IMG/VR virus record: IMGVR_UViG_3300049053_000110
Span: 1-56,802 of that record
DNA: 56,802 bases
Source of the DNA: a virus
Taxonomy: Duplodnaviria; Caudoviricetes
Direction: 5' to 3' (one strand)
Shown: positions 2,684 through 31,962 of the stretch, piece after piece
Layout: every line of letters starts with the position of its first letter
How positions within the stretch are numbered: the first letter of the stretch is position 1
Program-made: the position numbers and the translations under genes
The notes under the pieces: model-generated
Told to the model about the DNA's origin: nothing
The model's input: only the letters and a program-made list of their open reading frames with translations
Database searches by the model: none

Positions 2684-2778
2684 GATGGGGTGGCGAAATG
2701 GTAGCCGCTGCCGATGGCCTTCGGCGATAACAAAGAAAGGTATCACTGTTAATTCGGGTTCGAATCCTGACCCCATCA
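2684..2778 (+). tRNA. Atypical tRNA-like RNA (6-nt anticodon loop, long extra arm)
   Basis: Acceptor GATGGGG/CCCCATC plus A; D-arm TGGCGAAATGGTAG; T-arm TCGGG-TTCGAAT-CCTGA; stem GCCGA/TCGGC with loop TGGCCT; no encoded CCA. Confidence 0.55.
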
Positions 2779-2981
2779 CAACCTTTCAGAGAGTGGATCG
2801 ATTGCCCTTGTGAAATTCCTGGGCTCGTGTACAGACAAGACTCTGTACTAATCGCAATGCCAACAATAAGCAGTCTTGTGAGGCGTGCGAGGGTAAGGAT
2901 TCAAGATGCTATCCCTTGCCGGTGGAGGAGAAATAACGGGAACCGGCTTTTTAAAAGTTCTTACTAACCCAAGCATAAATC

Positions 2982-7636: not shown

Positions 7637-8772
7637 ATGGATCTGAATAAAATTCACCATATCGATGCAAGTAAAGGGGTGTATGATCTGCAACACGGTT
7701 CAATAAATTGCTGCGTATCATCCATCCCTTATTATGGCTTGCGTGATTATGGTGTGCCTAAAACTATGTGGCCGGAAATAACTTATTCTCTTTTTGGTTT
7801 TGATATTACTATTCCTGAAATGGAATGCTGCCTTGGCTTGGAAAAAACGCCAAAGGAATTTGTTGCACACATCGTTCATATCTATAGGGGCATTTGGAAT
7901 GCCTTGGCCGACGATGGCACCAACTGGTTGAATATTGGTGATAGTTATGCAGCAGCTGGCAAAAATCGAACGGAGGAACAAGCTTGTAGAAAATCAAATT
8001 TATCAGGTTCAAAAGGCACTCAGATTTCTTGTTCAAAACAGCCCAACAAAATAGTTGGTGGAGTTAAGGCAAAAGATATGTTAGGCATTCCATGGATGGT
8101 TGCTTTTGCTCTTCGTTCAGCAGGATGGTATTTAAGGCAGGATATTATTTGGCACAAACCCAATCCGATGCCCGAAAGTGTAACAGATCGTTGCACAAAA
8201 GCTCATGAATACATTTTCTTACTAACCAAAAGCAATAAATATTTCTTTGATCAGAAAGCTATCCTGCAGCCATTAGCAGATACAACTGAAATCCGTTTGG
8301 CACAAAATCTATCCGGCCAAAGGCCGGATCAGATCGAGTGCCAGGAAAAACAAATGGACCTATGAAAGCAGTAAGTCGCAAGCATACTGCAAACCCTAAT
8401 CCTAAAGGCAATCAGCAGTCGTTTCACAAAACTGGTCATTCTGGATATGTAGATAATAATGGAAGGGTTTTGGTTAACCTGGATGGCAGCAATAAAAGAA
8501 GTGTGTGGAGTGTTACCGCCAAACCTTTTTCTGAAGCTCACTTCGCAACCTATCCACCTGATTTAATTATTGATTGTATTAAAGCCGGCTGTCCTGTTAA
8601 TGGCGTTGTGCTTGATCCTTTCATGGGCGCCGGCACTACAGCATTAGTTGCTGCGAAGCTCAATAGAAATTTTATCGGCTTCGAACTTAATGCTGATTAC
8701 ATCAAAATAGCAAACAAAAGATTGAAGAAAGAATTAGGCATGTTCCATCCAGATAATACAAAAATTACGTGA
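7637..8772 (+). pseudogene. DNA N4-C/N6-A methyltransferase split by a -1 frameshift (7637-8365 and 8338-8772)
   Basis: N-half: SSIPYYGLRDY (SPPY-like), WHKPNPMPESV. C-half: HFATYP, VLDPFMGAGTT. Confidence 0.8.
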
Positions 8773-17869: not shown

Positions 17870-17944
17870 CGCGGGGTGGAGGAGTGGTTCCTTGCCTCTT
17901 TGACTTGGAGGAGACCGGTAGTTCGATTCTACCCCCCGCAACCA
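17870..17944 (+). tRNA. tRNA with GAC (Val) anticodon on an initiator-type body
   Basis: Acceptor CGCGGGG/CCCCGCA with C1xA72; D-stem GAGG/CCTT; anticodon stem CCTCT/GGAGG with loop TTGACTT; T-arm GGTAG-TTCGATT-CTACC; encoded ACCA end. Confidence 0.88.
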
Positions 17945-17945
17945 G

Positions 17946-17972
17946 AAAAAGGAGCTTTAAACGGCTCTTTTT
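17946..17972 (+). terminator. Terminator after the tRNA
   Basis: AAAAGGAGC..GCTCTTTTT. Confidence 0.5.
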
Positions 17973-18134
17973 AGTTCTTTGAAATAATGGGTAAAAAGGC
18001 AAAAGAAAGCTGAAAATAGCTTTGAAAATCAATTATTTACAAAATAATTTGATTATTTGCTACTTTTTCAAAAATAGTTGTATATTTACGGTGTCATTCA
18101 ATTACATCATTTAAACACTTTAAAAACTACAATT

Positions 18135-19067
18135 ATGAAACAAGCTTCAAATTTTGCAGACTCTTTGATTGGTTCAGCAATAGAAAATGTTCAAGCGGAT
18201 GCGGTTAACGAAATGCTCGATAAATACGGACTTAATTGGAACGTGAAAAAGGAAGGGCTTTATTTGCCTGGCAATATCGAAACTTCATTTTTTGGCATTG
18301 TTCGCGAGGATACAAATAATTGCTTTCAAACTTGCAAAGGTTCTTATGTGCCTTATCAGAATAAAGAGCTTGCGGAGTTGGTTTACAGAATAGGGGAAAA
18401 AACGGGCTATGAAATTCACAAGGGCGGCATGTTCAATGGCGGTGCAAAAGTTTACATACAACTGGAAACGGGCATCGTTAATGGCATAGGAGAAAACAAG
18501 GATAGTATTAAAAAGTACGTGACGGCAATCAATTCGCATGACGGCTCAACTTCTTTACGTTGGGGGCATACAAATATTACTATTTCGTGTCTCAACACTT
18601 TCAACGCCGCATACCGTGATGTTAAGAATAGCGCCAGGCATACGCAATCTATTCAACGCATAGTTGAACAATCATTAATGGAACTGGAAGCACTCGAAAA
18701 AGTTGAAAAGTCAATTTTTGATACTTATTTCAAGCTCGCTGAAACGCCTGTTAAAAAGGTGCATATTGAAGATATTGTTTTGCAAACTATTGACGTGGAT
18801 ATTTCGGTTACTAAGGACGTTTTAGAAAAGGAATACAGCACCTATAGGCTCAATCAAATGCATGAATTACTCGCATGCATTCAAAAGGAGATGAAGCAAA
18901 AGGGTGAGACGTTATGGGGGCTATTTTCGGGCGTTACCAACTACACTACGCATAAAATGAGTGCGCCAAAAAGAGACAACGGGCGCTTAGAAAGCAAATA
19001 TGTAGGCGAAGGCTTTCGGGTTGACAATGATGTTTTTGATGTAATAACGACAAAGTTTTTAAGCTAA
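18135..19067 (+). CDS. DUF932-family protein
   Basis: LNWNV, Y.PYQN, NSHDGS, C.NT and TLWGLFSGVT.Y motifs; promoter-like TATATTTA at 18081. Confidence 0.8.
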   Translation: MKQASNFADSLIGSAIENVQADAVNEMLDKYGLNWNVKKEGLYLPGNIETSFFGIVREDTNNCFQTCKGSYVPYQNKELAELVYRIGEKTGYEIHKGGMFNGGAKVYIQLETGIVNGIGENKDSIKKYVTAINSHDGSTSLRWGHTNITISCLNTFNAAYRDVKNSARHTQSIQRIVEQSLMELEALEKVEKSIFDTYFKLAETPVKKVHIEDIVLQTIDVDISVTKDVLEKEYSTYRLNQMHELLACIQKEMKQKGETLWGLFSGVTNYTTHKMSAPKRDNGRLESKYVGEGFRVDNDVFDVITTKFLS

Positions 19068-19075
19068 AGCCAGGC

Positions 19076-19098
19076 AAGGGGCTTCGGCCCCTTCTTTT
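19076..19098 (+). terminator. Rho-independent terminator
   Basis: AAGGGGC-TTCG-GCCCCTT followed by CTTTT. Confidence 0.75.
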
Positions 19099-19132
19099 CA
19101 TCAATCATTTATTCAACTTCAAAACTCATTTT

Positions 19133-19555
19133 ATGTTTATTCTAAAATTATATGATCGCAAAGGCAGAGAGTTGAACACGGGCGACATAGTAAAAATATC
19201 GAACGGCAAGTATTTTACTTTTTGGGCAGAGGTAAAGTATCTGCAAAAAGAAAAGGTTATCACTCCGTTCCATACGTTCAGTTTCCATTCCTTCGAAAAA
19301 GTTGACAAGGTTCCTGAAAATGCTACAAAGAGCACTGAGGATCGTTACAATATTTGGTATGTGTATCAGGACGAAGCAGAGGAAGATAAAGAAGCAAATA
19401 AATTCGAACAGTATTTGATGGATTGGCGCATATGCGAGCATTTGTTAGACGATAAGTGTTTTAGGATTGCTTTAATCGAAGGGAAAAATGTCGGCACTGG
19501 TTTTCCTCCAGGTGGTCCAAACGACGAGGCTGCGATGATAGCAGCACACGGTTAA
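19133..19555 (+). CDS. Hypothetical protein with YopX-like motif
   Basis: LYDRKGRELNTGDIV. Confidence 0.55.
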   Translation: MFILKLYDRKGRELNTGDIVKISNGKYFTFWAEVKYLQKEKVITPFHTFSFHSFEKVDKVPENATKSTEDRYNIWYVYQDEAEEDKEANKFEQYLMDWRICEHLLDDKCFRIALIEGKNVGTGFPPGGPNDEAAMIAAHG

Positions 19556-19644
19556 CGGCAAAGGGAGCACGAATGCTCCCCTTACTTGTCATTCAATTGC
19601 AAACACTTAAAAGCATCTACAAATGAGGTGCAAAGGTAGATTTT

Positions 19645-20340
19645 ATGGAACTAATAATAAATTTTTCTGGCGGCAAGGATAGTTCGGCAATGCTTGCTTA
19701 TCTGTGTGAAAAATATCCAGAAATTAAAAAGCATGTTGTTTTTGCTGACACCGGATGGGAACATAAAGACGCCGAGGCCTGGTGCCGACAAATAGTTTCA
19801 TCCTTTGGATTGGAATTGCATGTTGTTCGAAATAAGAATAAGACATTGTTGACTATGGCGGAACAGCGAGGCAAGTTTCCAGGCATGCAGCAAAGACAAT
19901 GCACCAGCGATTTAAAACGCGATCCGATTGCCAGTTGGATTCGAAACAATGTAAAAGATAAATTGATCATTAATTGCTTGGGCATTCGTTCTGAAGAAAG
20001 CAGCGGGAGGAAAAAACAAAGAAAGCTAAAGCGGAATAATCGGGAAACAAATTCAATGCGCACTATTTGGGATTGGGCGCCAATTAAAGATTGGACAGAA
20101 AAACAGGTCTTGGAATATCTTGAACAAAAGGGCATACCACTGCATCCCGTGTACAAATACCTGCATCGATTTTCTTGTCGTGTGTGTATTTTCATGCAAG
20201 AGCATGAGATAAAGGCTGTAAGCGAAAATGATCCCGAGGCAATTGATATTATTTCAAACGTGGAGAGGAGAATCAATTTTCACATGACACAAAGCGGCTT
20301 TATTGATGAAATTATCAAACGTCAAGCAATCGTTGCATAA
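19645..20340 (+). CDS. PAPS-reductase-family (adenine nucleotide alpha-hydrolase) protein
   Basis: PP-loop SGGKDS, FADTGWE, CT..LK, GIR.EES..R, PI.DWT, RFSCRVC. Confidence 0.85.
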   Translation: MELIINFSGGKDSSAMLAYLCEKYPEIKKHVVFADTGWEHKDAEAWCRQIVSSFGLELHVVRNKNKTLLTMAEQRGKFPGMQQRQCTSDLKRDPIASWIRNNVKDKLIINCLGIRSEESSGRKKQRKLKRNNRETNSMRTIWDWAPIKDWTEKQVLEYLEQKGIPLHPVYKYLHRFSCRVCIFMQEHEIKAVSENDPEAIDIISNVERRINFHMTQSGFIDEIIKRQAIVA

Positions 20341-20341
20341 A

Positions 20342-20551
20342 ATGAAGAAAAGAAGAAAAAAAGGAAGTGGCGGCTACCGGCCAGGAGCCAAGAGGCCTTT
20401 AAAATACGGAGAGCCTACAGAGATTGTTCGCTTCAGTATTCCCATTTCAAAGACAGATCAAGCTAAAGAGATTATGAAAAAATGGCTAAAACAATTCGAG
20501 GCGCCAAAGGTATCAGGTAAGCCTGACGGCTCTCAACATTATTCTTTATGA
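20342..20551 (+). CDS. Small basic DNA-binding-like protein
   Basis: GGYRPGAKRP..GEPT..RFSIP (RHH-like). Confidence 0.55.
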   Translation: MKKRRKKGSGGYRPGAKRPLKYGEPTEIVRFSIPISKTDQAKEIMKKWLKQFEAPKVSGKPDGSQHYSL

Positions 20552-21252
20552 CAGTATCGAGCGAATATAAAGACAGCACGGAGCTAATGCAGAAAATGGC
20601 AGCACGGACAAATGGAACGTGCTTGCTTGCTTTCAGCACAGGTAAAGATGCTCTTTGCGCATGGGTAGAGCTTAGAAAATACTTTCACACTATTATTCCT
20701 GTTTACTATTATCTGATTCCAAAGCTTTCATTTATTGAGCGGTCGTTGTCATACTACGAGGAGTTTTTTAAAACTAAGATCATAAGGCTTCCCAACACAA
20801 ACTTGTATAAAATGCTCAATTATCAGGTTTATCAAACGCCCTCGACCATAAAAATTATTAATGCATTCGCCCTGCCAATGGTCAACAGAGAGCAATTACT
20901 AGGGTATTTAAAAGAAGATTTAGGATTAGATAAGGAATGCTTTGTTGCCATTGGAAACAGAATGTATGACAACCTTGCCAGATACAGGTCAATAACAAAG
21001 TTTGGCCCTGTTAATCAAAAGAATAAAACATTTTACCCAGTGTATGATTACAAAATAGCAGATGTTCTAAGCTCTATAAAACAAGCAGGGGTGCAATTAC
21101 CTGTGGATTACAGGCTATTTGGAAAAACGTTCGACGGCTTGGATTATCGGTTTTTAAAGCCAATAAAAGAGCAATACCCCGAAGATTTTGAAAAGATCAA
21201 ACAATTTTTCCCATTGGTTCACCTGGAAATTATGCGCTATGAGCAACTTTAA
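20548..21252 (+). CDS. Divergent PP-loop/PAPS-reductase-like protein
   Basis: LLAFSTGKDA PP-loop; LPVDY.LFGKTFDG motif. Confidence 0.65.
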   Translation: MTVSSEYKDSTELMQKMAARTNGTCLLAFSTGKDALCAWVELRKYFHTIIPVYYYLIPKLSFIERSLSYYEEFFKTKIIRLPNTNLYKMLNYQVYQTPSTIKIINAFALPMVNREQLLGYLKEDLGLDKECFVAIGNRMYDNLARYRSITKFGPVNQKNKTFYPVYDYKIADVLSSIKQAGVQLPVDYRLFGKTFDGLDYRFLKPIKEQYPEDFEKIKQFFPLVHLEIMRYEQL

Positions 21253-21646
21253 AATTAAATACGGCAGTCAGGGCGGCAAGAAAAGCATTTTCGTTAAGCA
21301 GCCAAAGACTACCAAAATAGATTACCCTGGCGAGCCAAACTTAGAGGTTGATACAGAGGTTGAGTTAAATGAACTTCAAAAGCAGTTCAGGGAAAAGGCT
21401 AAAAAAGAAGCAGAGTTAAAGGAGAAAAACACGTCTTCCGAGTATTGGTCATGTATCATTTTTGAAAACCAAGAACAGCGGGACAGTCTTTACGAGCTTT
21501 TAGGGTTACGGGAGTCAGATAATCAGTATATAAACGGCAAAAAGCTTATAAGGGCACTAGAATTGAAAATTGCAGAAATAAATGAAAAGGCTCCAGGGAA
21601 ATTCAAGTGCAATAAAGAGTTGCTGGAGCTTTCAATGAAACCATAG
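21239..21646 (+). CDS. Hypothetical protein coupled to the PP-loop gene
   Basis: ATG 21239; SEYW.CIIF...QRD motif. Confidence 0.65.
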   Translation: MSNFKIKYGSQGGKKSIFVKQPKTTKIDYPGEPNLEVDTEVELNELQKQFREKAKKEAELKEKNTSSEYWSCIIFENQEQRDSLYELLGLRESDNQYINGKKLIRALELKIAEINEKAPGKFKCNKELLELSMKP

Positions 21647-21682
21647 TATTTTTATTTTTTAACCATTAAAAATTAAAGTTGA

Positions 21683-21772
21683 GTCAGAAGAAGAATTGAT
21701 TCTACGCTACGCCAACTTTCTGGGTTGAGCGGGCTGTCTTTAACAGGCAGGAGAGGCGTTACAGGTTCTTAA
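21683..21772 (+). CDS. 29-aa Arg/Gly/Ser-rich peptide with proposed GTC start (VRRRIDSTLRQLSGLSGLSLTGRRGVTGS)
   Basis: A-rich leader, then in-frame TGA directly followed by GTC; no ATG in frame. Confidence 0.55.
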   Translation, partial: VRRRIDSTLRQLSGLSGLSLTGRRGVTGS

Positions 21773-21824
21773 TCATTAGCAAGGCTCCACCATAACCGGT
21801 GCGAGCCTTTTCCAATTTACCACC

Positions 21825-22436
21825 ATGAAAAAGAAAGCCACCAGGAAAACCCCACCTAAAGCAAAGCCAAAAAGCTCTGCCAGGGGAAAACATGTGAAAA
21901 AACCTAAGCCGAAATCCACAAAACCAAAACCTCAGCATGTGGATAACGGCAGGAACGAGAAAGGGCAATTCGTTGCGGGCAACGCCGAGGGTCACCGTTT
22001 TGAAGAGGGGCATAAAGATTCTGAAAAGTGGACTCCCGAAACAGTAATACCCGTTATGGAAAAAATGCTCAAGCATCTTACTACTGATCCCATGGCAGAA
22101 GATGAAGGTGACAGTAAACCCATCAACGTGGTTAGAGCCAACGATATAAAGCTCGCCGGAGAAATAAGGTTGATGTTCGGGGTAACAAAACAAAGGTGGG
22201 CTGAATGGATGCAAAAGTTTAAGGATCATGCCGTTATTTCCGACCTCAGTGCGCAAATTATGGAAATCCTTGAGTGCCGTTTGATGTATTCAGGCACTTC
22301 AATGGACACATTTATACTTAAGAATCACTACGATTATACGGACAAGATCGATACTACTTCAAAGGGTAAAGAAGTGGGCACAGCATCATCTTTCCTTGAC
22401 CTATTAAAAGCAGCTTCCCAACAACCGAGTCAATAA
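21825..22436 (+). CDS. terS: Terminase small subunit
   Basis: Directly upstream of TerL; RNEKGQFVAGN and FILKNHYDYTDK motifs. Confidence 0.75.
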   Translation: MKKKATRKTPPKAKPKSSARGKHVKKPKPKSTKPKPQHVDNGRNEKGQFVAGNAEGHRFEEGHKDSEKWTPETVIPVMEKMLKHLTTDPMAEDEGDSKPINVVRANDIKLAGEIRLMFGVTKQRWAEWMQKFKDHAVISDLSAQIMEILECRLMYSGTSMDTFILKNHYDYTDKIDTTSKGKEVGTASSFLDLLKAASQQPSQ

Positions 22437-24057
22437 ACAACAGGCTATACAACAATTGGCCGAATGGCGCAAACCTGGTGGATGGAAACATTTCGCAAGG
22501 ATAGTGCTTGGCGTGAACCTCGATCCTGAACAGGAAGAGATACTCGATGCCGTTCAAATGCATAGCGCTGTGTCGGTTGCTTCCGGTACCGGTAGGGGCA
22601 AAGACTTCGTGGCCGCAGTTGCGGCAATGTGTTTTTTATACCTCACTCCAAAATGGAATGAGAAAGGCGAGCTGGTAGAAAACACCAAGGTAGCCATGAC
22701 AGCACCAACAGGCAGGCAGGTTAAGAACATCATGTTTGCCGAAATCTCACGCATGTTCAACCGGGCCAAGTTCTTACCAGGCAGGCTTACTGGCAATGAT
22801 ATAAGAACAGAAGATGCAGAATGGTTCTTAACAGGCTTCAAGGCCGATGATCATAATACAGAGGCATGGACCGGCTTCCACGCAGTAAATACATTCTTTG
22901 TAGTTACCGAGGCGAGCGGTATGCCCGAACTAATCTTCAATGCCATTGAAGGAAACCTGCAAGGCAATTCACGGATATTGATTGTGTTTAACCCCAACGT
23001 TTCCACCGGCTATGCCGCAGCTTCACAAAGGTCAAAGCATTGGAGGCATTTTAGGCTCGACTCACTCACGGCGCCAAACGTGGTGTATCACAAAGAGATT
23101 GCGGCAGGTACCTACAAAGCTATTCCCGCCCAGGTGGACCACAAATGGGTAAAGGATAGGGTTGAAAAATGGTGCATGCCCATTGCCCAAAGCGATTATA
23201 ATGAAGGCAAGGGAGATTTTTATTTTGAGATTGACGGCATAAACAGGCTATGGAGGCCAAACGATTTGTTCCGCGTGAAAGTCCGGGGCATGTTCCCCGA
23301 AGTCGGCGAAGATGTGCTCGTACCGCTCCACTGGATAGAGCTTGCCAATGACAATTGGCGGGAACACATGGAACAAGGATGGTCACACAAACACAAAGCC
23401 CTTCGCCTTGGCTCTGATATCGCCGGAATGGGAACAGATTCTACTTGTCACTGCTACCGGTTTGGAAGTTTTGTAAAAGAGTTTCGTTCTATCCACTCAG
23501 GAGGCACGGCAAACCACATGCAATCGGCAGGGCATATAGTTTCTGAATTACGTGCAAACACCTCAGAAACAATGCTTGCCCAGTCGTTCATAGATACAAT
23601 TGGCGAAGGTGCCGGCGCTTACTCCCGGGTGCTGGAAGTGTTGGAAGATGATGATATACTTGAAGTAGATAACCAGGTGCACAGCGTAAAGGCGGGAGAG
23701 CGGGCAGAGTATGAAGGCTCAGAGCTTACAGACTCCACCGGCCAATACTATTTTAAAAACATGCGAGCCTTCCTTTATTGGGCAATCCGCGAATGGCTCA
23801 ACCCTGTAAACAAGCACAAGCCATGCCTTCCACCCGATGATGAACTTGCTCAGGAACTAACAGAAACAAAGTGGAAGCTACTTAGTAACGGTATGATTCA
23901 GATTGAGCCGAAGGAAGAACTTAAAGCAAGGATTTCCCGCTCACCGGACAAAGCAGATTCTCTTTCACTCACATTTTACCCATCCGAGGACATACACCGC
24001 AAGGCAAGTCTATCGGGCAATAAAAAAGAAACATCTATTTGGAACAACTTTCAATAA
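22429..24057 (+). CDS. terL: Terminase large subunit (proposed GTC start at 22429; TTG alternative at 22456)
   Basis: Walker A SGTGRGKD, VVTEASG, nuclease motifs GSDIAGMGTD and SPDKADSL. Confidence 0.9.
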   Translation, partial: VNKQQAIQQLAEWRKPGGWKHFARIVLGVNLDPEQEEILDAVQMHSAVSVASGTGRGKDFVAAVAAMCFLYLTPKWNEKGELVENTKVAMTAPTGRQVKNIMFAEISRMFNRAKFLPGRLTGNDIRTEDAEWFLTGFKADDHNTEAWTGFHAVNTFFVVTEASGMPELIFNAIEGNLQGNSRILIVFNPNVSTGYAAASQRSKHWRHFRLDSLTAPNVVYHKEIAAGTYKAIPAQVDHKWVKDRVEKWCMPIAQSDYNEGKGDFYFEIDGINRLWRPNDLFRVKVRGMFPEVGEDVLVPLHWIELANDNWREHMEQGWSHKHKALRLGSDIAGMGTDSTCHCYRFGSFVKEFRSIHSGGTANHMQSAGHIVSELRANTSETMLAQSFIDTIGEGAGAYSRVLEVLEDDDILEVDNQVHSVKAGERAEYEGSELTDSTGQYYFKNMRAFLYWAIREWLNPVNKHKPCLPPDDELAQELTETKWKLLSNGMIQIEPKEELKARISRSPDKADSLSLTFYPSEDIHRKASLSGNKKETSIWNNFQ

Positions 24058-24063
24058 ACCACC

Positions 24064-25461
24064 ATGAACAAACTCGAACTGGACCAACTCATTAAAGCAG
24101 GCGACTTTAATAAAGTAAAACAGGCGCTGGAAAACGAAAAGCCGGAAGATAACGGACTTGCTGATGCAAAAAAGCAGTACGATGTTAACGAACACGAAGT
24201 AATGAAGCGAGAGGATAAGATGATAACCACTAATTCAGGAAAAAAATTAGTGAAGCTGAATAAGATCGGCCTCGACTTCCAAGTACTTATTTCTTTCCGT
24301 CACGCAGCTATATTGTGTGCAAATAAAATACAGCTTCTCGCCACTCCGAAAGATGAAGCCGAAACTAATTACTTGCAGGTTATACAAAAGTCGTGGGATG
24401 ATAATAAGCTCGATTACAAAACCATGCAGTTGGCCGAAATGATGCTCAGCGAAACCGAGTGCGCAGAGCTATGGTATTTGGAAGATATCAAAGAAGATAA
24501 AACTTATTGGGCCAACACTCCAAATGAGGGAAGGCCATGGCGCATGCGTTCCGCTATCCTTGCATCATCAAGAGGCGACGAGCTTCTTCCATCCTATGAT
24601 GATAAAGACAACCTTATTGCTTTTGGCCGTGGCTTTAAAATAAAAGTGCAGGGAAAAGATGAGGAGCATTTTGATTTATATACCGACAAGACAATTTACA
24701 AATGCGTTGTTGGTGTTGGAGGCAAGTTGGAAGCAAAGCAAGAGAATAACCTTATTCAAAAAATACCGATTATTTATTTCAAGCAGGCAAAGACAGCATG
24801 GGCAAATGTTCAAACACTTATCAGCCGGCTTGAGTTGCTGCTATCAAAATGGGGTGACATTAACGACTATAACGGATCTCCGATATTGGTAGGTCAGGGA
24901 AAAATAAAAGGCTTGGCCGAGAAGGGAGAGGATGGTAAAGTGTTCGAGATTGAAAAAGGCGGCAAGCTCGAATACCTGTCATGGGATCACGCACCGGAAA
25001 GTATTAAGAATGAGATTGAAACGCTAATTCGTTTGATCTATGTGCTGAGCAATACACCGGACGTTTCATTTGAAAACATGAAAGGGCTTGGTGCCACTTC
25101 CGGCTTTGCACTGGAAATGATGTTTATGGATGCTCACATGAAAGCCGCAAAGACTGAGGGCACATTTGGCGAAGGAATACAGCGCCGTATCAATTTCCTG
25201 AAACACTCAATGGCTCACATCAATGTAAAGTTTGGCAAGAACACGGCGCTAAGCATTAAGCCAAAATTTGAATACTTCATGCCGAAGAACATTAGTGAAA
25301 TGATTGACATACTCACTACTGCAGTACAGGGGGGCATCATGAGTAAAGAGACAGCTGTTTCGCAAAACCCATTGGTGAAAGAACCGGCGAAAGAGCTGGA
25401 AAGAATCAAAGCCGAGCAACCCACCGATGCAGAGAAATTGAATAATGATTTAAACGATTAG
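24064..25461 (+). CDS. Portal protein (SPP1 gp6-like)
   Basis: 465 aa after TerL; IPIIYF, SGFAL and MSKETA motifs. Confidence 0.85.
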   Translation: MNKLELDQLIKAGDFNKVKQALENEKPEDNGLADAKKQYDVNEHEVMKREDKMITTNSGKKLVKLNKIGLDFQVLISFRHAAILCANKIQLLATPKDEAETNYLQVIQKSWDDNKLDYKTMQLAEMMLSETECAELWYLEDIKEDKTYWANTPNEGRPWRMRSAILASSRGDELLPSYDDKDNLIAFGRGFKIKVQGKDEEHFDLYTDKTIYKCVVGVGGKLEAKQENNLIQKIPIIYFKQAKTAWANVQTLISRLELLLSKWGDINDYNGSPILVGQGKIKGLAEKGEDGKVFEIEKGGKLEYLSWDHAPESIKNEIETLIRLIYVLSNTPDVSFENMKGLGATSGFALEMMFMDAHMKAAKTEGTFGEGIQRRINFLKHSMAHINVKFGKNTALSIKPKFEYFMPKNISEMIDILTTAVQGGIMSKETAVSQNPLVKEPAKELERIKAEQPTDAEKLNNDLND

Positions 25462-26831: not shown

Positions 26832-27236
26832 ATGCTAACAACAATTATTTGCACAACGAGCATTTTGCTCAACCTATTGCTTGTATTCGCAATCCGATAC
26901 TTGTTTAAAAACTATTATCCCAAAAAAGTAAATAATTCCGCTATGCATCTTCGTAGGGCATGTTACATGGTGCTTCAAGATGGGAGGTGGTCAGCCTACA
27001 CGGATAAGGGAGAACCCGTGCCGGGAATTAAGAAAGGGTCGGTGTGGATTTCTCAAGGCAAGGAAACTCTGAATGTTTGTTCACTTGAATTTTATGTAAA
27101 CATTTGCGGAAGTAAGGAGGAAATGTATCTCAGAATAAAACAAAGGGAAGAAAAGGAAAACGAGCGATTAAATATTACTAATCCCTTTTTACCCGGTTCT
27201 TACCAAGCAAACGAAATATCACCTAAGCAACATTGA
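26832..27236 (+). CDS. Membrane-anchored hypothetical protein
   Basis: N-terminal TM helix. Confidence 0.6.
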   Translation: MLTTIICTTSILLNLLLVFAIRYLFKNYYPKKVNNSAMHLRRACYMVLQDGRWSAYTDKGEPVPGIKKGSVWISQGKETLNVCSLEFYVNICGSKEEMYLRIKQREEKENERLNITNPFLPGSYQANEISPKQH

Positions 27237-28276
27237 TCGACTACAAAAAATATGAAGAGCGACTTATCCGCAATATCCTCAAGCAACATGAGGCTGTCCG
27301 TGCTATATACGGGGAAGCCATCAATGAAATAACTTTCACCGCAGCTAAGTACACCTATAAAGGCAAGGTGTTCGACCTCAATAAATACCCTGCACTGAAA
27401 ATAAAAGTAGATACTGCATTAAAGCAAATGCATGGTAGTATCTACTCCGTTTCTGTCAATGGTATAAAAGAGTCGTGGGATTTAGGCAACGAGAAAAATA
27501 ATGTGCTGATCGATCAACGGCTCAAAGGCCGCTCTGTTACTCCAAAGGCAAAGCAAATCCTTTACGACCCGAACACCAGTGCATTAAAATCATTCACCAA
27601 TAGAAGGCGTGACGGCCTCGGCTTAAGCGATAGGGTATGGAAAGGCCTGAAGCCATTTAACAATGAGCTGGAGCATGGCCTTGCTCTCGGTATTGGCAAA
27701 GGTCAGTCAGCAAAAGAAATGGCGAGGGAATTACAGAAGCATCTTAAAAATCCAGATGAATTATTTCGCAAGGTCCGCAATGCAAAAGGCGAACTGGAAT
27801 TATCGCAAAGGGCAAAGAACTTCCACCCTGGCCGCGGTGTGTACCGTTCATCTTATCAAAATGCTTTGCGGCTCACAGCAAGCGAAACAAATATAGCATA
27901 TAGAACGAGCGATCATGAGCGGTGGAAAGTGTCGCCAACGGTTTCAGCTATTGAAGTAAAGCTCTCGGACGCTCACCCGACGAGAGATATTTGCGATCAC
28001 TTAGTTGGTAAGTATCCAAAGGACTATAAGCATGTAGGGTTCCACACAAGGTGTTTATGTTATGCTATTCCAATCCTTACTAGCGATGCAGATTTTGACA
28101 GGCAGTTAGATGCAATCTTTAATGATGAAGAGCCGGGCAATCCAATGAGTGTAAAGAAGGTGCCAGGCAATGCGACCAAGTGGATGAAGGCGAATGCAGA
28201 GAAGTTGCAAGGATATAAATCACTTCCTTATTTTATTCGTGATAATCCGCAGTATTATGGAAAGTATTTTGATTAA
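27233..28276 (+). CDS. Minor head morphogenesis protein (SPP1 gp7/Mu gpF-like)
   Basis: RL..SETNIAY, DICD, FHTRCLC motifs. Confidence 0.8.
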   Translation: MIDYKKYEERLIRNILKQHEAVRAIYGEAINEITFTAAKYTYKGKVFDLNKYPALKIKVDTALKQMHGSIYSVSVNGIKESWDLGNEKNNVLIDQRLKGRSVTPKAKQILYDPNTSALKSFTNRRRDGLGLSDRVWKGLKPFNNELEHGLALGIGKGQSAKEMARELQKHLKNPDELFRKVRNAKGELELSQRAKNFHPGRGVYRSSYQNALRLTASETNIAYRTSDHERWKVSPTVSAIEVKLSDAHPTRDICDHLVGKYPKDYKHVGFHTRCLCYAIPILTSDADFDRQLDAIFNDEEPGNPMSVKKVPGNATKWMKANAEKLQGYKSLPYFIRDNPQYYGKYFD

Positions 28277-30244: not shown

Positions 30245-30820
30245 ATGCAAAATTATAAATCAACCGAGAGTGAAGTAGTTCTCGCGTTTACGAAGATTTT
30301 GGAAGATAGACCAGGTGGTATGACCGTTGCCGCGGCTAATCTTACGGCTGGTGATACAGTGAAGGCCGGCGCTATTGTCCGCAAAGACAGTAACGGGCTT
30401 TTTCATGTTATGAAAACTGCGGAACTGTATGCAAATGCTACTAACTCCGCGACAACGTACCAGGTAAAGAAAGGCCATCTATTTAAAGTAGGTGAATTTA
30501 TTGGCATCATCGGTGGTGTTTCCAAAACCATTACGGCAATAGATAGTACAACTAACACAACTCACGATGTGATTACTGTAGATGCTACTATCGGAACGGC
30601 CCTTACTGCCGGTGACGTGTTGGAGCAGGCTTCGTCTGCTTCAGCCACAAGCGCCCGCACGGGTACTCCTGTAGGTATGGTGGGAACTTCTTTGCTGATA
30701 ACAGCAAGTGATAACCACACCTCGCAGCTTGTGCTAAAAGGTACTGCCATCGCTGGCAATATACCTCCGGCAACAGCTACGCTGAAAGCATTGCTGCCTC
30801 AAATCACTTATGCTGTATAA
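30245..30820 (+). CDS. Head decoration protein
   Basis: Position between scaffold and MCP; Thr/Ala-rich beta protein. Confidence 0.6.
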   Translation: MQNYKSTESEVVLAFTKILEDRPGGMTVAAANLTAGDTVKAGAIVRKDSNGLFHVMKTAELYANATNSATTYQVKKGHLFKVGEFIGIIGGVSKTITAIDSTTNTTHDVITVDATIGTALTAGDVLEQASSASATSARTGTPVGMVGTSLLITASDNHTSQLVLKGTAIAGNIPPATATLKALLPQITYAV

Positions 30821-30879
30821 GCTTGAGTGTTTAAGGCATTAGTTGGAAACCAAAAATCTTAAAGCAAAAATCGTTCGTA

Positions 30880-31962
30880 ATGAAAAATTCATTAGTACAG
30901 GGGTTGAAAGAAAAGGACATGCAGGCGGTAGTTAATACCTACAACCTGAATGACTTCTTTTATCCTTCGATCTTCCCTTTGAAATTTACGCCTACCCTCA
31001 CGTGGAAATCACTTGAGGCTGACTTAGGCCTTCCCATTGCGGCAGATGTAGTTTCTTATGATGCTACAGCTCCCCGTAAAACCCGCAGGGTGATCAATCG
31101 CCTTTCCGGTGATATTCCCAAAATTGAAATTGCCCGCGATAAAAAAGAAAGCGAGCTCAATGAGTATTATGAGCTTTTGAACTATGCAAAAACCACCGAT
31201 GGCGCTCAAGCTATACTTGATTGGATTTATGAAGATGTGGAGTTTTGCTTCAAAGGTGTAAATGCCCGTTTGGAGTGGTTAGCTCTCCGTGCCCTTTCTA
31301 CTGGTAAAGTGACTTTGGATAAAGACAACAACAATGGTGTTGTTACCGAAACTGCAATTGACTTCATGGTGCCAACTGCTCAAAAGAGCGGCGTTACAAC
31401 CATTTGGTCAACGGCCGCAAGTGCTGATCCTGTTGCCAACATCAAAGCCAAACAAAAGCTTGCGAAAGCTGCCGGTTGGAGATTGGGTGTTGCCTACATG
31501 GACCAGGACACTTTTGACTACATGGTTGCCACCGAAAAGGTGCAAAAGGCCATGGCTTCATGGGCCATTGTTGCAGTGAGCGGACAAAGCGCACCTGATC
31601 TGGAAACGGTAAACAAATACATGGCTAAAAATGGTTTGCCCCGCATTATCATTATCGATAGCCAAATGCAGATTGAAAAGCAAGATGGTACTAAAACTAC
31701 TGTTACGCCTTTCCAGGCTGGTGTTGTTGCCCTCGTTCCTGAAGCAGTTTGCGGTAATACTTACCATGGTCCTTTGGCCGATGAGAAAGTAGAAAGCAGC
31801 ACTGCGCTTAAGGTTAAGCGTGGTCACGTGATGATCAAAAGATTTTCTCAGGAAGAGCCTTTGGTGGAAAGCACCAAGGCGATGGCTAATGCATTCCCTG
31901 TGTTTGCATCTGCCAAACGTGCGTACCTGATGGATGCGCTCAACACTTCCTGGACTTATTAA
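30880..31962 (+). CDS. Major capsid protein (lambda gpE-like)
   Basis: 360 aa; AADVVSYD, GDIPKI, RLEW..L.AL.TG, W..A.SADP motifs. Confidence 0.85.
   Translation: MKNSLVQGLKEKDMQAVVNTYNLNDFFYPSIFPLKFTPTLTWKSLEADLGLPIAADVVSYDATAPRKTRRVINRLSGDIPKIEIARDKKESELNEYYELLNYAKTTDGAQAILDWIYEDVEFCFKGVNARLEWLALRALSTGKVTLDKDNNNGVVTETAIDFMVPTAQKSGVTTIWSTAASADPVANIKAKQKLAKAAGWRLGVAYMDQDTFDYMVATEKVQKAMASWAIVAVSGQSAPDLETVNKYMAKNGLPRIIIIDSQMQIEKQDGTKTTVTPFQAGVVALVPEAVCGNTYHGPLADEKVESSTALKVKRGHVMIKRFSQEEPLVESTKAMANAFPVFASAKRAYLMDALNTSWTY

What the first reader, a model, noticed from the sequence alone, without database searches (positions are those of the whole stretch)
17870..24057. Candidate phage-private initiation code: an initiator-type tRNA(GAC) and GTC-start genes gating DNA packaging
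Seen in sequence: the phage encodes a tRNA with initiator identity elements and anticodon loop 5'-UUGACUU-3'. Two downstream ORFs lack a usable ATG and have an in-frame GTC in a shared context: TTGA-GTC-AGA (21679-21688, 29-aa peptide) and CCGA-GTC-AAT (22425-22434, large terminase). Both contexts pair antiparallel with all 7 loop bases and with G39/G40 (9-10 bp including G-U), which would explain the abnormal U37 as pairing with the A at -1. Established: E. coli tRNA-fMet engineered to anticodon GAC is valylated, formylated and initiates at GUC. Inference: a tRNA made at the end of the early/middle transcript licenses translation of TerL, giving a translational early-to-late switch or a start mechanism independent of host tRNA-fMet (for example, evading anticodon nucleases). 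I know of no described natural case, but could not check the literature.
Basis: partly seen in the sequence, partly recalled or inferred. Interest (0 to 1): 0.95.

Follow-up and report, generated by a model that had tools for sequence, protein, structure and literature searches.

The report
Phage initiator tRNA reading GUC starts
This phage, like many Bacteroides gut phages, carries a copy of the host's start-of-translation tRNA whose anticodon now reads valine codons GUC/GUU, and certain phage genes begin with those codons instead of AUG, which looks like a natural private start code.

Summary

**The tRNA.** Window 17870-17944 encodes a tRNA with the body of a Bacteroidales initiator tRNA. 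It keeps C1xA72, G2:C71, C3:G70, G4:C69 and A11:U24. Its anticodon arm is replaced: loop UUGACUU, anticodon GAC, U37, and no three G:C pairs.

**The family.** I found at least 50 sequence variants in IMG/VR phages, metagenomes and five Bacteroidales genomes. Stems covary, and the initiator marks never change (in 25 aligned sequences).

**Co-occurrence with GTY starts.** Every tRNA-bearing locus with enough downstream DNA has a nearby gene that starts GA-GTC or GA-GTT and has no canonical start: 123/123, 5/5 and 95/95.
- Most of these genes are small arginine-rich proteins (VRRK...GLSNG).
- First codons are GTC 69, GTT 38, GTA 1 (unchecked), GTG/ATG/TTG 0. GTC and GTT are the codons a GAC anticodon reads.
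- Syntenic relatives without the tRNA (3/3) start the same genes with ATG (MARRK...).

**In the window.**
- The 29-aa ORF at 21683 belongs to this family.
- The putative TerL has GTC 22429 exactly where homologues have Met. From TTG 22456 its N-terminus would be shorter than in all 78 relatives examined.
- Two other phages start a PAPS-reductase-like gene the same way.

**Limits.** All evidence is computational. The proposed role as a packaging switch is inference. I found no natural precedent in print.

The parts
17870..17944 (+). Initiator-derived tRNA, anticodon GAC. Loop UUGACUU with U37/U38; C1xA72, A73, A11:U24; CCA encoded at 17942-17944.
   Evidence: ARAGORN; sequence. The cloverleaf is supported by covariation in 9 sequences (98.9% of cells paired, 7 compensatory pairs) and in 25 sequences (13 compensatory pairs, 1:72 never paired). 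The body aligns with host Bacteroidales initiator tRNAs except in the anticodon arm.
17947..17972 (+). Terminator-like hairpin with a T-run directly after the tRNA.
   Evidence: Consensus scan. The count of such sites in the region is not above the shuffles, so only its position is suggestive.
19645..21252 (+). Two PAPS-reductase-like genes (19645-20340 and 20548-21252, both ATG) with a small ORF between them. The same module type follows the tRNA in gut phages.
   Evidence: Pfam PAPS_reduct E 1.7e-23; PHROG 2302 E 1.6e-15; alignment A3.
21658..21682 (+). Upstream context of the small ORF, TTTAACCATTAAAAATTAAAGTTGA. It resembles the context before small ORF 1 of gut phages (..GTTTAAC..TAAAATT....YGA).
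   Evidence: Contexts compared by eye. No statistic was computed.
21683..21772 (+). 29-codon ORF starting at GTC straight after an in-frame TGA: VRRRIDSTLRQLSGLSGLSLTGRRGVTGS. A short member of the GTY-start arginine-rich small-protein family. It sits just upstream of the TerS-like gene, as small ORF 3 does in gut phages.
21825..22436 (+). 203-aa ORF (ATG), placed like a small terminase subunit. Its stop TAA 22434-22436 lies 2 nt after the TerL GTC codon.
   Evidence: No Pfam or PHROG hit. The small-terminase role is inferred from position only.
22429..22431 (+). GTC, proposed start codon of TerL, in context CCGA-GTC-AAT.
   Evidence: It aligns with the modal Met of 120 homologues. It lies 51 residues before the Walker-A motif SGTGRGKD, against 49-86 in 78 of 78 relatives.
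22429..24057 (+). Putative large terminase, 542 aa from GTC. The alternative start TTG 22456 gives 533 aa.
   Evidence: Walker A motif; the next gene is an SPP1-type portal; homologues are named Terminase by UniRef. There is no Pfam hit, and PHROG 5902 is 'unknown function', so 'TerL' rests on these indirect grounds.
24064..25461 (+). Portal protein (SPP1 Gp6-like), ATG start.
   Evidence: Pfam PF05133, E 3.2e-51.

Best explanation
The tRNA at 17870-17944 is a phage-borne derivative of the host (Bacteroidota) initiator tRNA. Its anticodon arm has been exchanged so that it reads GUC and, by G34.U wobble, GUU.

**Proposed mechanism.**
- Its anticodon (A35, C36) and A73 should make it a ValRS substrate.
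- Its retained C1xA72, G2:C71, C3:G70, G4:C69 and A11:U24 should make it a substrate for the formyltransferase and keep it off EF-Tu.
- It would therefore deliver (f)Val to the P site and start translation at GUY codons that the host initiator cannot read.
- The start sites carry an invariant G(-2)A(-1), complementary to U38/U37. Usually there are pyrimidines at -4/-3 (opposite G40/G39) and a purine at +4 (opposite U33). Codon-anticodon pairing is therefore probably extended by at least two pairs.

**Clients.** In the gut phages these are one to five small arginine-rich proteins interleaved with the ASCH, PAPS-reductase-like, ParB-like, TerS and TerL genes. In some phages the PAPS-reductase-like gene is also a client. 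In this window the clients are the 29-aa ORF at 21683 and, most likely, TerL at 22429.

**Consequence.** Expression of these proteins depends on the phage's own tRNA.

**Shown versus inferred.** Shown by comparison only: the family, its initiator marks, the GTY-only first codons, and the tRNA/start-codon co-variation. Inferred: valylation, formylation, P-site use, extended pairing and any regulatory purpose.
For: 1. **The tRNA is a real, conserved family.**
   - One search lists 50 unique variants.
   - In 25 aligned sequences (23 phage, 2 host), 13 of 21 pairs show compensatory change. 1:72 is C/A in 25/25, A11:U24 in 25/25, and pairs 2:71 to 5:68 are invariant, while 6:67 and 7:66 covary.
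   - The body matches host initiators of Bacteroides mediterraneensis and Dysgonomonas. Only the anticodon arm differs.
   - The loop context CUUUGACUUGG is also intact in variants reached through protein homology rather than a tRNA pattern.
   - A scan that left the anticodon free found only GAC: 31 tRNAs plus 14 non-tRNA chance hits.

2. **GTY-start genes accompany the tRNA.**
   - With one criterion (GA-GTY, at least 30 codons, no upstream canonical start, 300-1100 nt downstream), positives were 123/123 IMG/VR loci, 5/5 genomes and 95/95 metagenome loci. A further 17 and 20 loci were too short to judge.
   - Controls with a looser criterion: 47/276 and 26/516 windows in other phages, 0/45 upstream and 7/230 on the opposite strand.
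   - The family's C-terminal motif ends 76 unique small ORFs on the tRNA strand. It ends 0 of 12577 ORFs on the opposite strand, and 0 of 7280 and 0 of 3912 in CAU-initiator phages.

3. **Only the codons a GAC anticodon reads are used.**
   - First codons are GTC 33 and GTT 9 among 42 real unique contexts. None is GTA, GTG, ATG or TTG.
   - Over 109 unique ORFs (108 with a first codon assigned): first codon GTC 69, GTT 38, GTA 1. Internal Val codons: GTA 91, GTT 73, GTC 40, GTG 19. Fisher p = 4e-23; the sequences are related, so p is indicative only.

4. **The ORFs need this start.**
   - An in-frame TGA directly precedes GTY in many.
   - The first canonical codon lies at variable places, from codon 5 to 62.
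   - The ORFs fill the gaps between ATG genes exactly.

5. **Natural control.**
   - Homologues exist that start MARRK...
   - The three syntenic IMG/VR loci that encode them (L343-345) have no such tRNA, and all their small ORFs start with ATG. The 74 assessable GTY-type loci from the same search all have the tRNA.

6. **Large genes.**
   - In L543 and L339 (a Dysgonomonas prophage) the PAPS-reductase-like gene has GA-GTC aligned to the Met of its homologues. The first canonical codon is 22 and 33 codons downstream.
   - In the window, GTC 22429 aligns with the modal Met of 120 TerL homologues.
   - 78/78 relatives have a canonical start 49-86 residues before SGT[AS]RGKD, and none of the 80 loci has the tRNA. 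The window gives 42 residues from TTG and 51 from GTC.

7. **Feasibility.** Passages of PMC2268962 state that the engineered E. coli initiator with anticodon GAC is valylated, formylated and initiates at GUC. The same holds in mammalian cells and Halobacterium.
Against:
- **Missing G:C pairs.** The three consecutive G:C pairs that license bacterial initiators for the P site are absent. 30:40 is C:G and 31:39 is U.G in all 23 aligned phage tRNAs, and 29:41 varies. By its search-listing abstract, PMC6393288 reports that an E. coli initiator with these pairs changed to UA/CG/AU is formylated but non-functional.
- **Weak tRNA score.** Rfam's tRNA model does not pass its threshold.
- **Divergent variant.** The L415 type has a T loop GGCGGAG and a D loop without GG, so it may not fold as a normal tRNA.
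- **TerL in the window is a single case.**
  - TTG 22456 is a canonical start 19 nt after the upstream stop, in an A-rich context.
  - This phage uses TTG at 27233.
  - The closest TerL relatives are at most 64% identical, so codon-level conservation upstream of TTG could not be tested.
- **Limited independence.** Many loci are near-identical gut-phage copies; 113 shared one tRNA sequence.
- **By-construction constraints.**
  - Most tRNA patterns I scanned with required the loop, so loop invariance is partly by construction.
  - The GA at -2/-1 was required by the filters. It was not required.
- **Confounded positions.** Conservation at +4 to +7 may reflect the Arg codon AGA rather than pairing.
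- **Unknown contexts.** The DNA around the ATG-start homologues P0123, P0124 and P0126 could not be seen.
Confidence: 0.78

Rival explanations
1. In this window TerL starts at the canonical TTG 22456. The GTC nine codons upstream is a relic or a coincidence. The tRNA serves only the small ORF, or nothing here.
For: - TTG 22456 is the first canonical codon of the frame.
- It sits 19 nt after the upstream stop, behind an A-rich stretch typical of Bacteroidota start regions (that it is typical is recalled).
- The phage uses TTG for the head-morphogenesis gene at 27233, and GTG is the first canonical codon of the frames at 8769 and 11651.
- TerL of the BS-TP2 type starts with ATG although the tRNA is present.
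- A GTC-start TerL was found in no other locus.
Against: - From TTG the N-terminus would be 42 residues before Walker A, shorter than in 78 of 78 relatives (minimum 49).
- The nine residues between GTC and TTG resemble homologue N-termini, for example NKQQAIQQL against NDNQVIQKF. GTC falls in the same alignment column as the modal Met.
- The site has the family context YYGA-GTC-A.
- Two other tRNA-bearing phages replace the ATG of a 227-228-aa gene by GA-GTC at the homologous position.
Confidence: 0.25
2. The GTY-start ORFs are initiated at low level by the host initiator tRNA through near-cognate pairing, as at the GTC start of Streptomyces sigR. The phage tRNA does something unrelated, such as elongation supply or a decoy for a tRNA-targeting defence.
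For: - A natural GTC start read without a dedicated tRNA is on record (PMC5472188, title and abstract in the listing).
- The phage tRNA lacks the three G:C pairs.
- Other phage initiator-like tRNAs with a CAU anticodon also carry U37 (L198, L213), so U37 need not be tied to GUC reading.
Against: - GUY differs from AUG at two of three positions.
- If the host initiator were used, GTG or TTG should appear among the starts. They are 0 of 42 real contexts and 0 of 108 assigned first codons.
- The tRNA is present in every assessable GTY locus and absent from the 3 ATG-type syntenic loci.
- An elongator role conflicts with the invariant C1xA72 and with U37.
- GTC is not enriched inside the genes: its share among Val codons is 0.17-0.18.
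Confidence: 0.07
3. The tRNA-like RNA acts off the ribosome as an antisense regulator. Its loop and adjacent stem bases pair with the 9-10-nt motif YYGAGUYRGA at the 5' ends of the target ORFs to control their translation or stability. It would not donate the first amino acid.
For: - The motif around the start is conserved beyond the codon: -4 is Y in 50/50, -3 is Y in 45/50, +4 is R in 50/50, +6 is A in 50/50.
- It is complementary to tRNA positions 40 to 31.
- The U31.G39 pair next to the loop is weak and invariant in the phage tRNAs.
Against: - It leaves the ORFs with no start codon at all.
- It does not explain why the acceptor-end and D-stem initiator and formylation marks are kept invariant while neighbouring pairs covary.
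- It does not explain why position +3 is only C or T, which is wobble logic.
Confidence: 0.05

Closest known systems
Engineered G34C36 (anticodon GAC) mutant of E. coli initiator tRNA2-fMet
   Same: An initiator tRNA body with anticodon GAC. By the passages read in PMC2268962, that mutant is charged by ValRS, formylated, and starts translation at GUC in E. coli, mammalian cells and Halobacterium. The phage tRNA is its natural counterpart, and its client genes resemble the GUC-start reporters.
   Different: The phage tRNA is natural, conserved and phage-encoded. Its whole anticodon arm is exchanged, not two bases. It has no three G:C pairs and carries U37/U38 in place of A37/A38. The client start sites have a conserved GA at -2/-1.
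Phage suppressor tRNAs with stop-codon recoding of late genes
   Same: A phage-encoded tRNA changes the reading of a codon in a subset of the phage's own genes, so those genes depend on the phage tRNA.
   Different: There the change concerns termination and elongation at TAG or TGA. Here it concerns initiation: a sense codon becomes a start codon and the tRNA is of initiator type.
Host bacterial initiator tRNA-fMet (Bacteroidales)
   Same: Same acceptor stem features, D arm, variable loop and T arm (alignment A4). C1xA72 and A11:U24 are shared.
   Different: Anticodon CAU, loop CUCAUAA and three G:C pairs in the host. Anticodon GAC, loop UUGACUU and stem 29-31 as N:N, C:G, U.G in the phage.
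Near-cognate non-AUG initiation, e.g. the GTC start of Streptomyces sigR (PMC5472188; listing abstract only)
   Same: A natural gene that begins with GTC.
   Different: By its listing abstract, sigR's GTC start is repressed by IF3; that it is read by the ordinary initiator is my inference. Here a dedicated tRNA with the matching anticodon co-occurs with the starts.
Phage-encoded canonical initiator tRNAs (CAU)
   Same: Phage copies of initiator tRNA with the same acceptor stem and T loop UUCGAUU. 79 identical copies turned up in 78-160 kb IMG/VR phages.
   Different: They keep CAU and so read AUG. No GTY-start small-ORF family was found in those loci (0 of 7280 and 0 of 3912 small ORFs).

Membership tests
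Bacterial initiator tRNA | Mismatch at 1:72 (C1xA72). | tested here: met
   C/A in 25 of 25 aligned sequences (23 phage, 2 host), while 6:67 and 7:66 covary. Window: C17870 and A17941.
Bacterial initiator tRNA | Formyltransferase determinants G2:C71, C3:G70, G4:C69 and A11:U24. This list is recalled from E. coli work. | tested here: met
   All are invariant in 25 of 25 sequences.
Bacterial initiator tRNA | Three consecutive G:C pairs, 29-31 with 39-41, in the anticodon stem. | tested here: not met
   In the phage tRNAs 30:40 is C:G, 31:39 is U.G, and 29:41 is A:U, G:C or U:A. The two host initiators have G:C three times.
Bacterial initiator tRNA | Anticodon CAU reading AUG. | tested here: not met
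   The anticodon is GAC in all variants.
Bacterial initiator tRNA | Formylated aminoacyl-tRNA is used in the P site with IF2. | not testable with these tools
   Needs biochemistry.
Elongator tRNA-Val(GAC) | Anticodon GAC with A35/C36, and discriminator A73. | tested here: met
   A73 is invariant.
Elongator tRNA-Val(GAC) | A Watson-Crick 1:72 pair (needed for EF-Tu; recalled) and a purine at position 37. | tested here: not met
   C1xA72 in 25 of 25 sequences. U37 in all 23 aligned phage tRNAs.
Orthogonal initiator tRNA / start-codon pair (known only as engineered systems) | Client genes begin with the codon complementary to the altered anticodon and lack canonical starts. | tested here: met
   First codon is GTC or GTT only in 42 real contexts; 107 of 108, the other being one unchecked GTA call. 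An in-frame stop precedes many of them.
Orthogonal initiator tRNA / start-codon pair (known only as engineered systems) | tRNA and special starts occur together, and relatives without the tRNA use AUG. | tested here: met
   123/123, 5/5 and 95/95 loci. 74 GTY loci with the tRNA against 3 ATG loci without it.
Orthogonal initiator tRNA / start-codon pair (known only as engineered systems) | Translation of the client depends on the tRNA. | not testable with these tools
   Needs reporters or a deletion.
Phage stop-codon recoding by suppressor tRNA | The tRNA reads a stop codon, and in-frame stops occur in late genes. | tested here: not met
   The anticodon is GAC. The window's genes are open under table 11.
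Large terminase (for the ORF 22429-24057) | Match to a curated terminase family. | tested here: not met
   No Pfam hit at E 0.01. PHROG 5902 is 'unknown function'.
Large terminase (for the ORF 22429-24057) | Walker-A ATPase motif, position next to the portal gene, homologues named terminase. | tested here: met
   SGTGRGKD; portal at 24064; UniRef names 'Terminase' for P0059 and P0064.

The most novel reading that the evidence does not exclude
A natural orthogonal initiation code. The phage initiator tRNA selects its start sites through an extended 9-10-nt duplex between its anticodon loop plus G39/G40 and the mRNA motif YYGA-GUY-RGA. In Bacteroidota ribosomes this duplex would stand in for the missing three G:C pairs.

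Because the clients use no codon that the host initiator can read, the tRNA would act as a translational switch. It would keep the small packaging-module proteins (and TerL or the PAPS-reductase-like gene in some phages) silent until the tRNA is made. It would also give them (f)Val N-termini.
Probability: 0.3. Interest if true: 0.97.

Novelty: categorically new. Interest (0 to 1): 0.93.

Why it matters
In bacteria and their viruses, initiation has been taken to run through a single initiator tRNA reading AUG and its near-cognates. Dedicated non-AUG initiators are known only as laboratory constructs.

A conserved, phage-encoded initiator that reads GUC/GUU for its own set of genes would be the first natural second start code.
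- It would show that initiation, like termination in recoded phages, can be made private by a virus.
- It would explain why gene callers truncate or miss these genes. BS-TP2 gp53 is annotated from an internal ATG, and a database entry starts at an internal TTG.
- It would offer a ready-made orthogonal initiation pair for Bacteroides engineering.
- It would open the question of how a tRNA without the three G:C pairs passes P-site checks.

The system is common in human-gut Bacteroidales phages. A cultured phage-host pair exists (BS-TP2 on Bacteroides salyersiae BG8), so it is directly testable.

Tried and rejected
**Ideas rejected.**
- *Integration-site remnant (attP).* The tRNA lies in mid-genome between replication and packaging genes, with stem covariation over 50 variants.
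- *The RAGTCA hexamer as the signal.* In BS-TP2 no RAGTCA site opens a long ORF without an upstream canonical start. The conserved part is GA-GTY with Y at -4/-3.
- *TerL as the general client.* BS-TP2-type TerL starts with ATG.

**Searches that led nowhere.**
- Function of the small proteins:
  - Pfam gave no hits, and PHROGs gave only hits with E > 0.03.
  - The ESM Atlas gave no usable hit.
  - AlphaFold gave a two-helix hairpin, mean pLDDT 74.6.
  - Foldseek against PDB gave 0 matches.
  - Function stays unknown.
- GenBank phages hold the tRNA in only 2 records: BS-TP2, where it is unannotated, and a 5-kb fragment.
- Closer relatives of the window's TerL were not found; the best identity was 62-64% (21).

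**Literature.** I ran eight full-text searches.
- None found a natural phage or cellular initiator tRNA with anticodon GAC, or a dedicated non-AUG initiator.
- I read only listings and abstracts, plus passages of PMC2268962.
- Supplements are closed and subscription journals are not covered, so absence in print is not proven.

**Weak points in my own counts.**
- The first detector missed 19 of 95 metagenome loci because its C-terminal motif was too narrow. Searches showed GA-GTC ORFs in all 19.
- The regex failed and was corrected. The regex was corrected.
- One of the 108 first codons was GTA, and I did not inspect it.
- Two GTT rows (VQLLK) are false starts upstream of the true GTC, and I dropped them from the count.

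Full report
**What is in the window.**

The contig is a 56.8-kb phage genome, and it is all the 'genome' that is held. Nearly all genes are on the + strand.

ARAGORN finds tRNA-Val(gac) at 17870-17944. Read, the cloverleaf is:
- CGCGGGG UG GAGG AGUGGUU CCUU G CCUCU UUGACUU GGAGG AGACC GGUAG UUCGAUU CUACC CCCCGCA A CCA.

It has C1xA72, A73, A11:U24, U37 and U38. The anticodon stem has no run of three G:C pairs. Rfam's tRNA model stays below its gathering score. A terminator-like hairpin follows at 17947-17972.

Downstream lie:
- a DUF932 gene;
- two PAPS-reductase-like genes;
- a 178-nt gap holding the 29-codon frame that opens at GTC 21683, directly after an in-frame TGA;
- a 203-aa ORF placed like TerS;
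- the putative TerL;
- an SPP1-type portal.

The TerL frame is open from 22408. It has GTC at 22429, its first canonical codon is TTG 22456, and its first ATG is at 22558.

**The tRNA is a conserved, initiator-derived family.**

A blastn search found the same tRNA, unannotated, in Bacteroides phage BS-TP2. It sits just upstream of ASCH, PAPS reductase, ParB-like, DUF5681, TerL and portal.

Pattern scans then gave:
- 111 IMG/VR loci with the BS-TP2 variant;
- 31 loci with seven further variants;
- five Bacteroidales genomes (Bacteroides sp. OM05-12, B. mediterraneensis, a B. ovatus MAG, a Bacteroidales MAG and Dysgonomonas macrotermitis), plus four chance hits;
- 119 metagenome loci.

One search lists 50 unique sequences.

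A scan with the anticodon left free, inside the context CUUU NNN UUGG, returned only GAC tRNAs. The other 14 hits are not tRNAs.

Variants reached through the small protein rather than through a tRNA pattern have different acceptor stems (CGCGGGU.., CGCGGAA..) but the same CUUUGACUUGG.

I aligned 23 phage tRNAs with the initiators of B. mediterraneensis and Dysgonomonas.
- The bodies match; only the anticodon arm differs.
- 13 of 21 pairs show compensatory change.
- 1:72 is unpaired in 25/25, A11:U24 holds in 25/25, and pairs 2:71 to 5:68 are invariant.
- 30:40 is C:G and 31:39 is U.G in all phage members.

So the marks that in E. coli direct formylation and keep the tRNA out of elongation (recalled knowledge) are under selection. 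The P-site mark (three G:C pairs) is gone.

**Genes that start with GUC or GUU.**

On the tRNA strand, downstream of the tRNA, small ORFs of 47-85 codons (one of 118) recur.
- They begin V-R-(R/K)-(R/K) or VARRINR.
- They end in G-[LMAF]-[STNA]-[NGT]-G.
- There are one to five per locus.

They fill the gaps between the ATG genes exactly. The order is tRNA, ASCH, small ORF 1, PAPS-reductase-like, small ORF 2, ParB-like, small ORF 3, TerS-like, TerL.

The C-terminal motif ends 76 unique small ORFs on the tRNA strand. It ends none of 12577 ORFs on the opposite strand, and none of 7280 + 3912 in 89 phage loci that carry a CAU initiator.

*First codons.*
- GTC in 33 and GTT in 9 real unique contexts, always preceded by GA. 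Two listed GTT rows are false.
- Over 109 unique ORFs (108 with a first codon assigned), first codons are GTC 69, GTT 38 and GTA 1 (not inspected).
- Internal Val codons of the same ORFs are GTA 91, GTT 73, GTC 40 and GTG 19.
- ATG, GTG and TTG never occupy the first position.

GUC and GUU are the two codons a G34-A35-C36 anticodon reads.

*Why the ORFs need this start.* Many sites have TGA in frame immediately before GTY. The first canonical codon inside the ORFs lies anywhere from codon 5 to 62.

*Context* (50 unique contexts, GA required by the filter):
- -5 is G in 47;
- -4 is a pyrimidine in 50;
- -3 is T 29, C 16, A 5;
- +4 is A 42, G 8;
- +5 is G in 42;
- +6 is A in 50;
- an AGGAGG-like element lies 5-16 nt upstream in 32.

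**Co-occurrence and the natural control.**

I applied one criterion throughout: GA-GTY, at least 30 codons, no upstream canonical start, 300-1100 nt after the tRNA.

| Set | Loci with >= 1 kb downstream that have such an ORF | Loci too short to judge |
|---|---|---|
| IMG/VR | 123/123 | 17 |
| Genomes | 5/5 | 0 |
| Metagenome | 95/95 | 20 |

Controls with a looser detector gave 47/276 and 26/516 windows in other phages, 0/45 upstream and 7/230 on the opposite strand.

A protein search with one GTC-start ORF found homologues that begin MARRK.. One cluster is named from Prevotella pallens. It also found a database entry truncated to an internal TTG.

A search with the ATG-type protein returned 80 IMG/VR loci.
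- Three (L343-345) encode the ATG form. They have the same gene order, and all of their small ORFs start with ATG (MARRNAQ.., MARRKSV.., MARKTLRQ..).
- In all eight of those small ORFs the start is preceded by 'tt'. Seven of the eight lack an AGGAGG-like element (L344's first has 'aggag'), and no such tRNA is present.
- 74 have GTC or GTT starts and all carry the tRNA.
- Three are too short upstream to judge.

**Large genes.**

In L543 and in the Dysgonomonas prophage L339, the PAPS-reductase-like gene has GA-GTC aligned with the Met of its homologues. The first canonical codon is 22 and 33 codons further on. In L543, small ORF 1 itself uses ATG.

For the window's TerL:
- the modal Met of 120 homologues falls in the same alignment column as GTC 22429, and the residues up to TTG resemble theirs;
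- 78 of 78 IMG/VR relatives with the Walker-A motif have a canonical start 49-86 residues before it (two of 80 lacked the motif);
- none of the 80 loci carries the tRNA;
- the window gives 42 residues from TTG and 51 from GTC, which is 49 plus a PGG insertion.

TTG cannot be excluded. This phage uses TTG at 27233. No close relative exists to test codon-level conservation.

**Mechanism.**

The best reading is a phage-private initiator. ValRS would charge the tRNA (A35, C36, A73). The formyltransferase would accept it, EF-Tu would not, and it would start translation at GUY.

Passages of PMC2268962 state that the engineered E. coli initiator with anticodon GAC does exactly this.

The conserved G(-2)A(-1) opposite U38/U37 suggests a lengthened codon-anticodon helix. 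The 'UU' before ATG in the tRNA-less relatives lies opposite A38/A37 of the host initiator and points the same way. This is two states only, so it is a hint and not covariation in the strict sense.

The lack of three G:C pairs is the main mechanistic objection (listing abstracts of PMC6393288 and PMC5389676).

Why a phage would do this is not shown. One option is to make the packaging-module proteins depend on a phage-made tRNA. Another is an N-terminal Val next to Arg where a retained Met would otherwise sit. Escape from attack on the host initiator is also conceivable.

**Comparison and novelty.**

The closest things known are:
- engineered orthogonal initiators;
- phage suppressor tRNAs that recode stops (recalled);
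- near-cognate GTC initiation at Streptomyces sigR (PMC5472188, listing abstract);
- ordinary phage-borne CAU initiators.

Eight full-text searches found no natural dedicated non-AUG initiator. I therefore rate it categorically new. The caveats are that all evidence is comparative and that my literature view is partial.

**Verdict.**
- The private start code is well supported, at about 0.8.
- A GTC start of TerL in this window is likely, at about 0.7.
- The packaging-switch role is open.

Noticed in passing
window 2684-2779 (+): ARAGORN calls a 96-nt tRNA-Arg(tcg) with a long insertion after the anticodon arm. Rfam does not confirm it. It may hold an intron, be a degenerate tRNA, or be a false call.
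   Followed up: no
L283:2804-2874, L289:2549-2619, L304:5146-5216 and about 40 further TerL-relative loci: Gut-phage relatives of this TerL carry a 71-nt tRNA that ARAGORN cannot name ('tRNA-???', anticodon 'tc'). Its anticodon loop is the 6-nt AUUCCA, between stems UUGGY/GCCAA. It often sits next to a tRNA-Phe.
   Followed up: partly
GTY-start small ORFs 2 and 3 in gut-phage loci, e.g. L096, L089, L119: A strong Shine-Dalgarno-like AGGAGG lies 5-16 nt before the GTY start in 32 of 50 contexts. It is absent before seven of the eight ATG starts of the tRNA-less relatives. Bacteroidia ribosomes are reported not to use such sequences (PMC9976891, listing abstract).
   Followed up: partly
L415:3610-3684 and seven sister loci (L416-L422): A variant of the GAC tRNA has T loop GGCGGAG and a D loop without GG, so the usual elbow contacts are missing. 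ARAGORN misses it. In these loci the small ORF used as the query starts with GTT.
   Followed up: partly
L165-L253 (IMG/VR phages of 78-160 kb); L198, L209, L251, L213: Many large phages encode a CAU initiator tRNA with only two G:C pairs in the anticodon stem (79 identical copies). A few phage CAU initiators have U37 (loops UUCAUUC, CUCAUUC).
   Followed up: no
PQ571275.1 (BS-TP2) 30718-30912; protein P0125: Gene callers truncate the GTY-start genes. BS-TP2 gp53 is annotated from the internal ATG 30751, and a Caudoviricetes database entry starts at an internal TTG read as Met. The tRNA itself is not annotated in BS-TP2.
   Followed up: yes
window 27233-28276 (+): The head-morphogenesis gene starts with TTG overlapping the upstream stop (TTGA). 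The first ATG is 65 codons later.
   Followed up: yes
Small-protein family, e.g. L096:4125-4313:-: The GTY-start proteins are predicted two-helix hairpins (mean pLDDT 74.6) with a conserved C-terminal Gly-Leu-Ser-Asn-Gly-type end. They have no Pfam, PHROG or PDB relative. Their function is unknown.
   Followed up: partly
window 4008 (+): GA-GTT with an upstream GGAAGAGGA lies 14 codons before the ATG 4050 of a 285-aa gene and overlaps the end of the previous gene. It could be another GTY start or chance.
   Followed up: no
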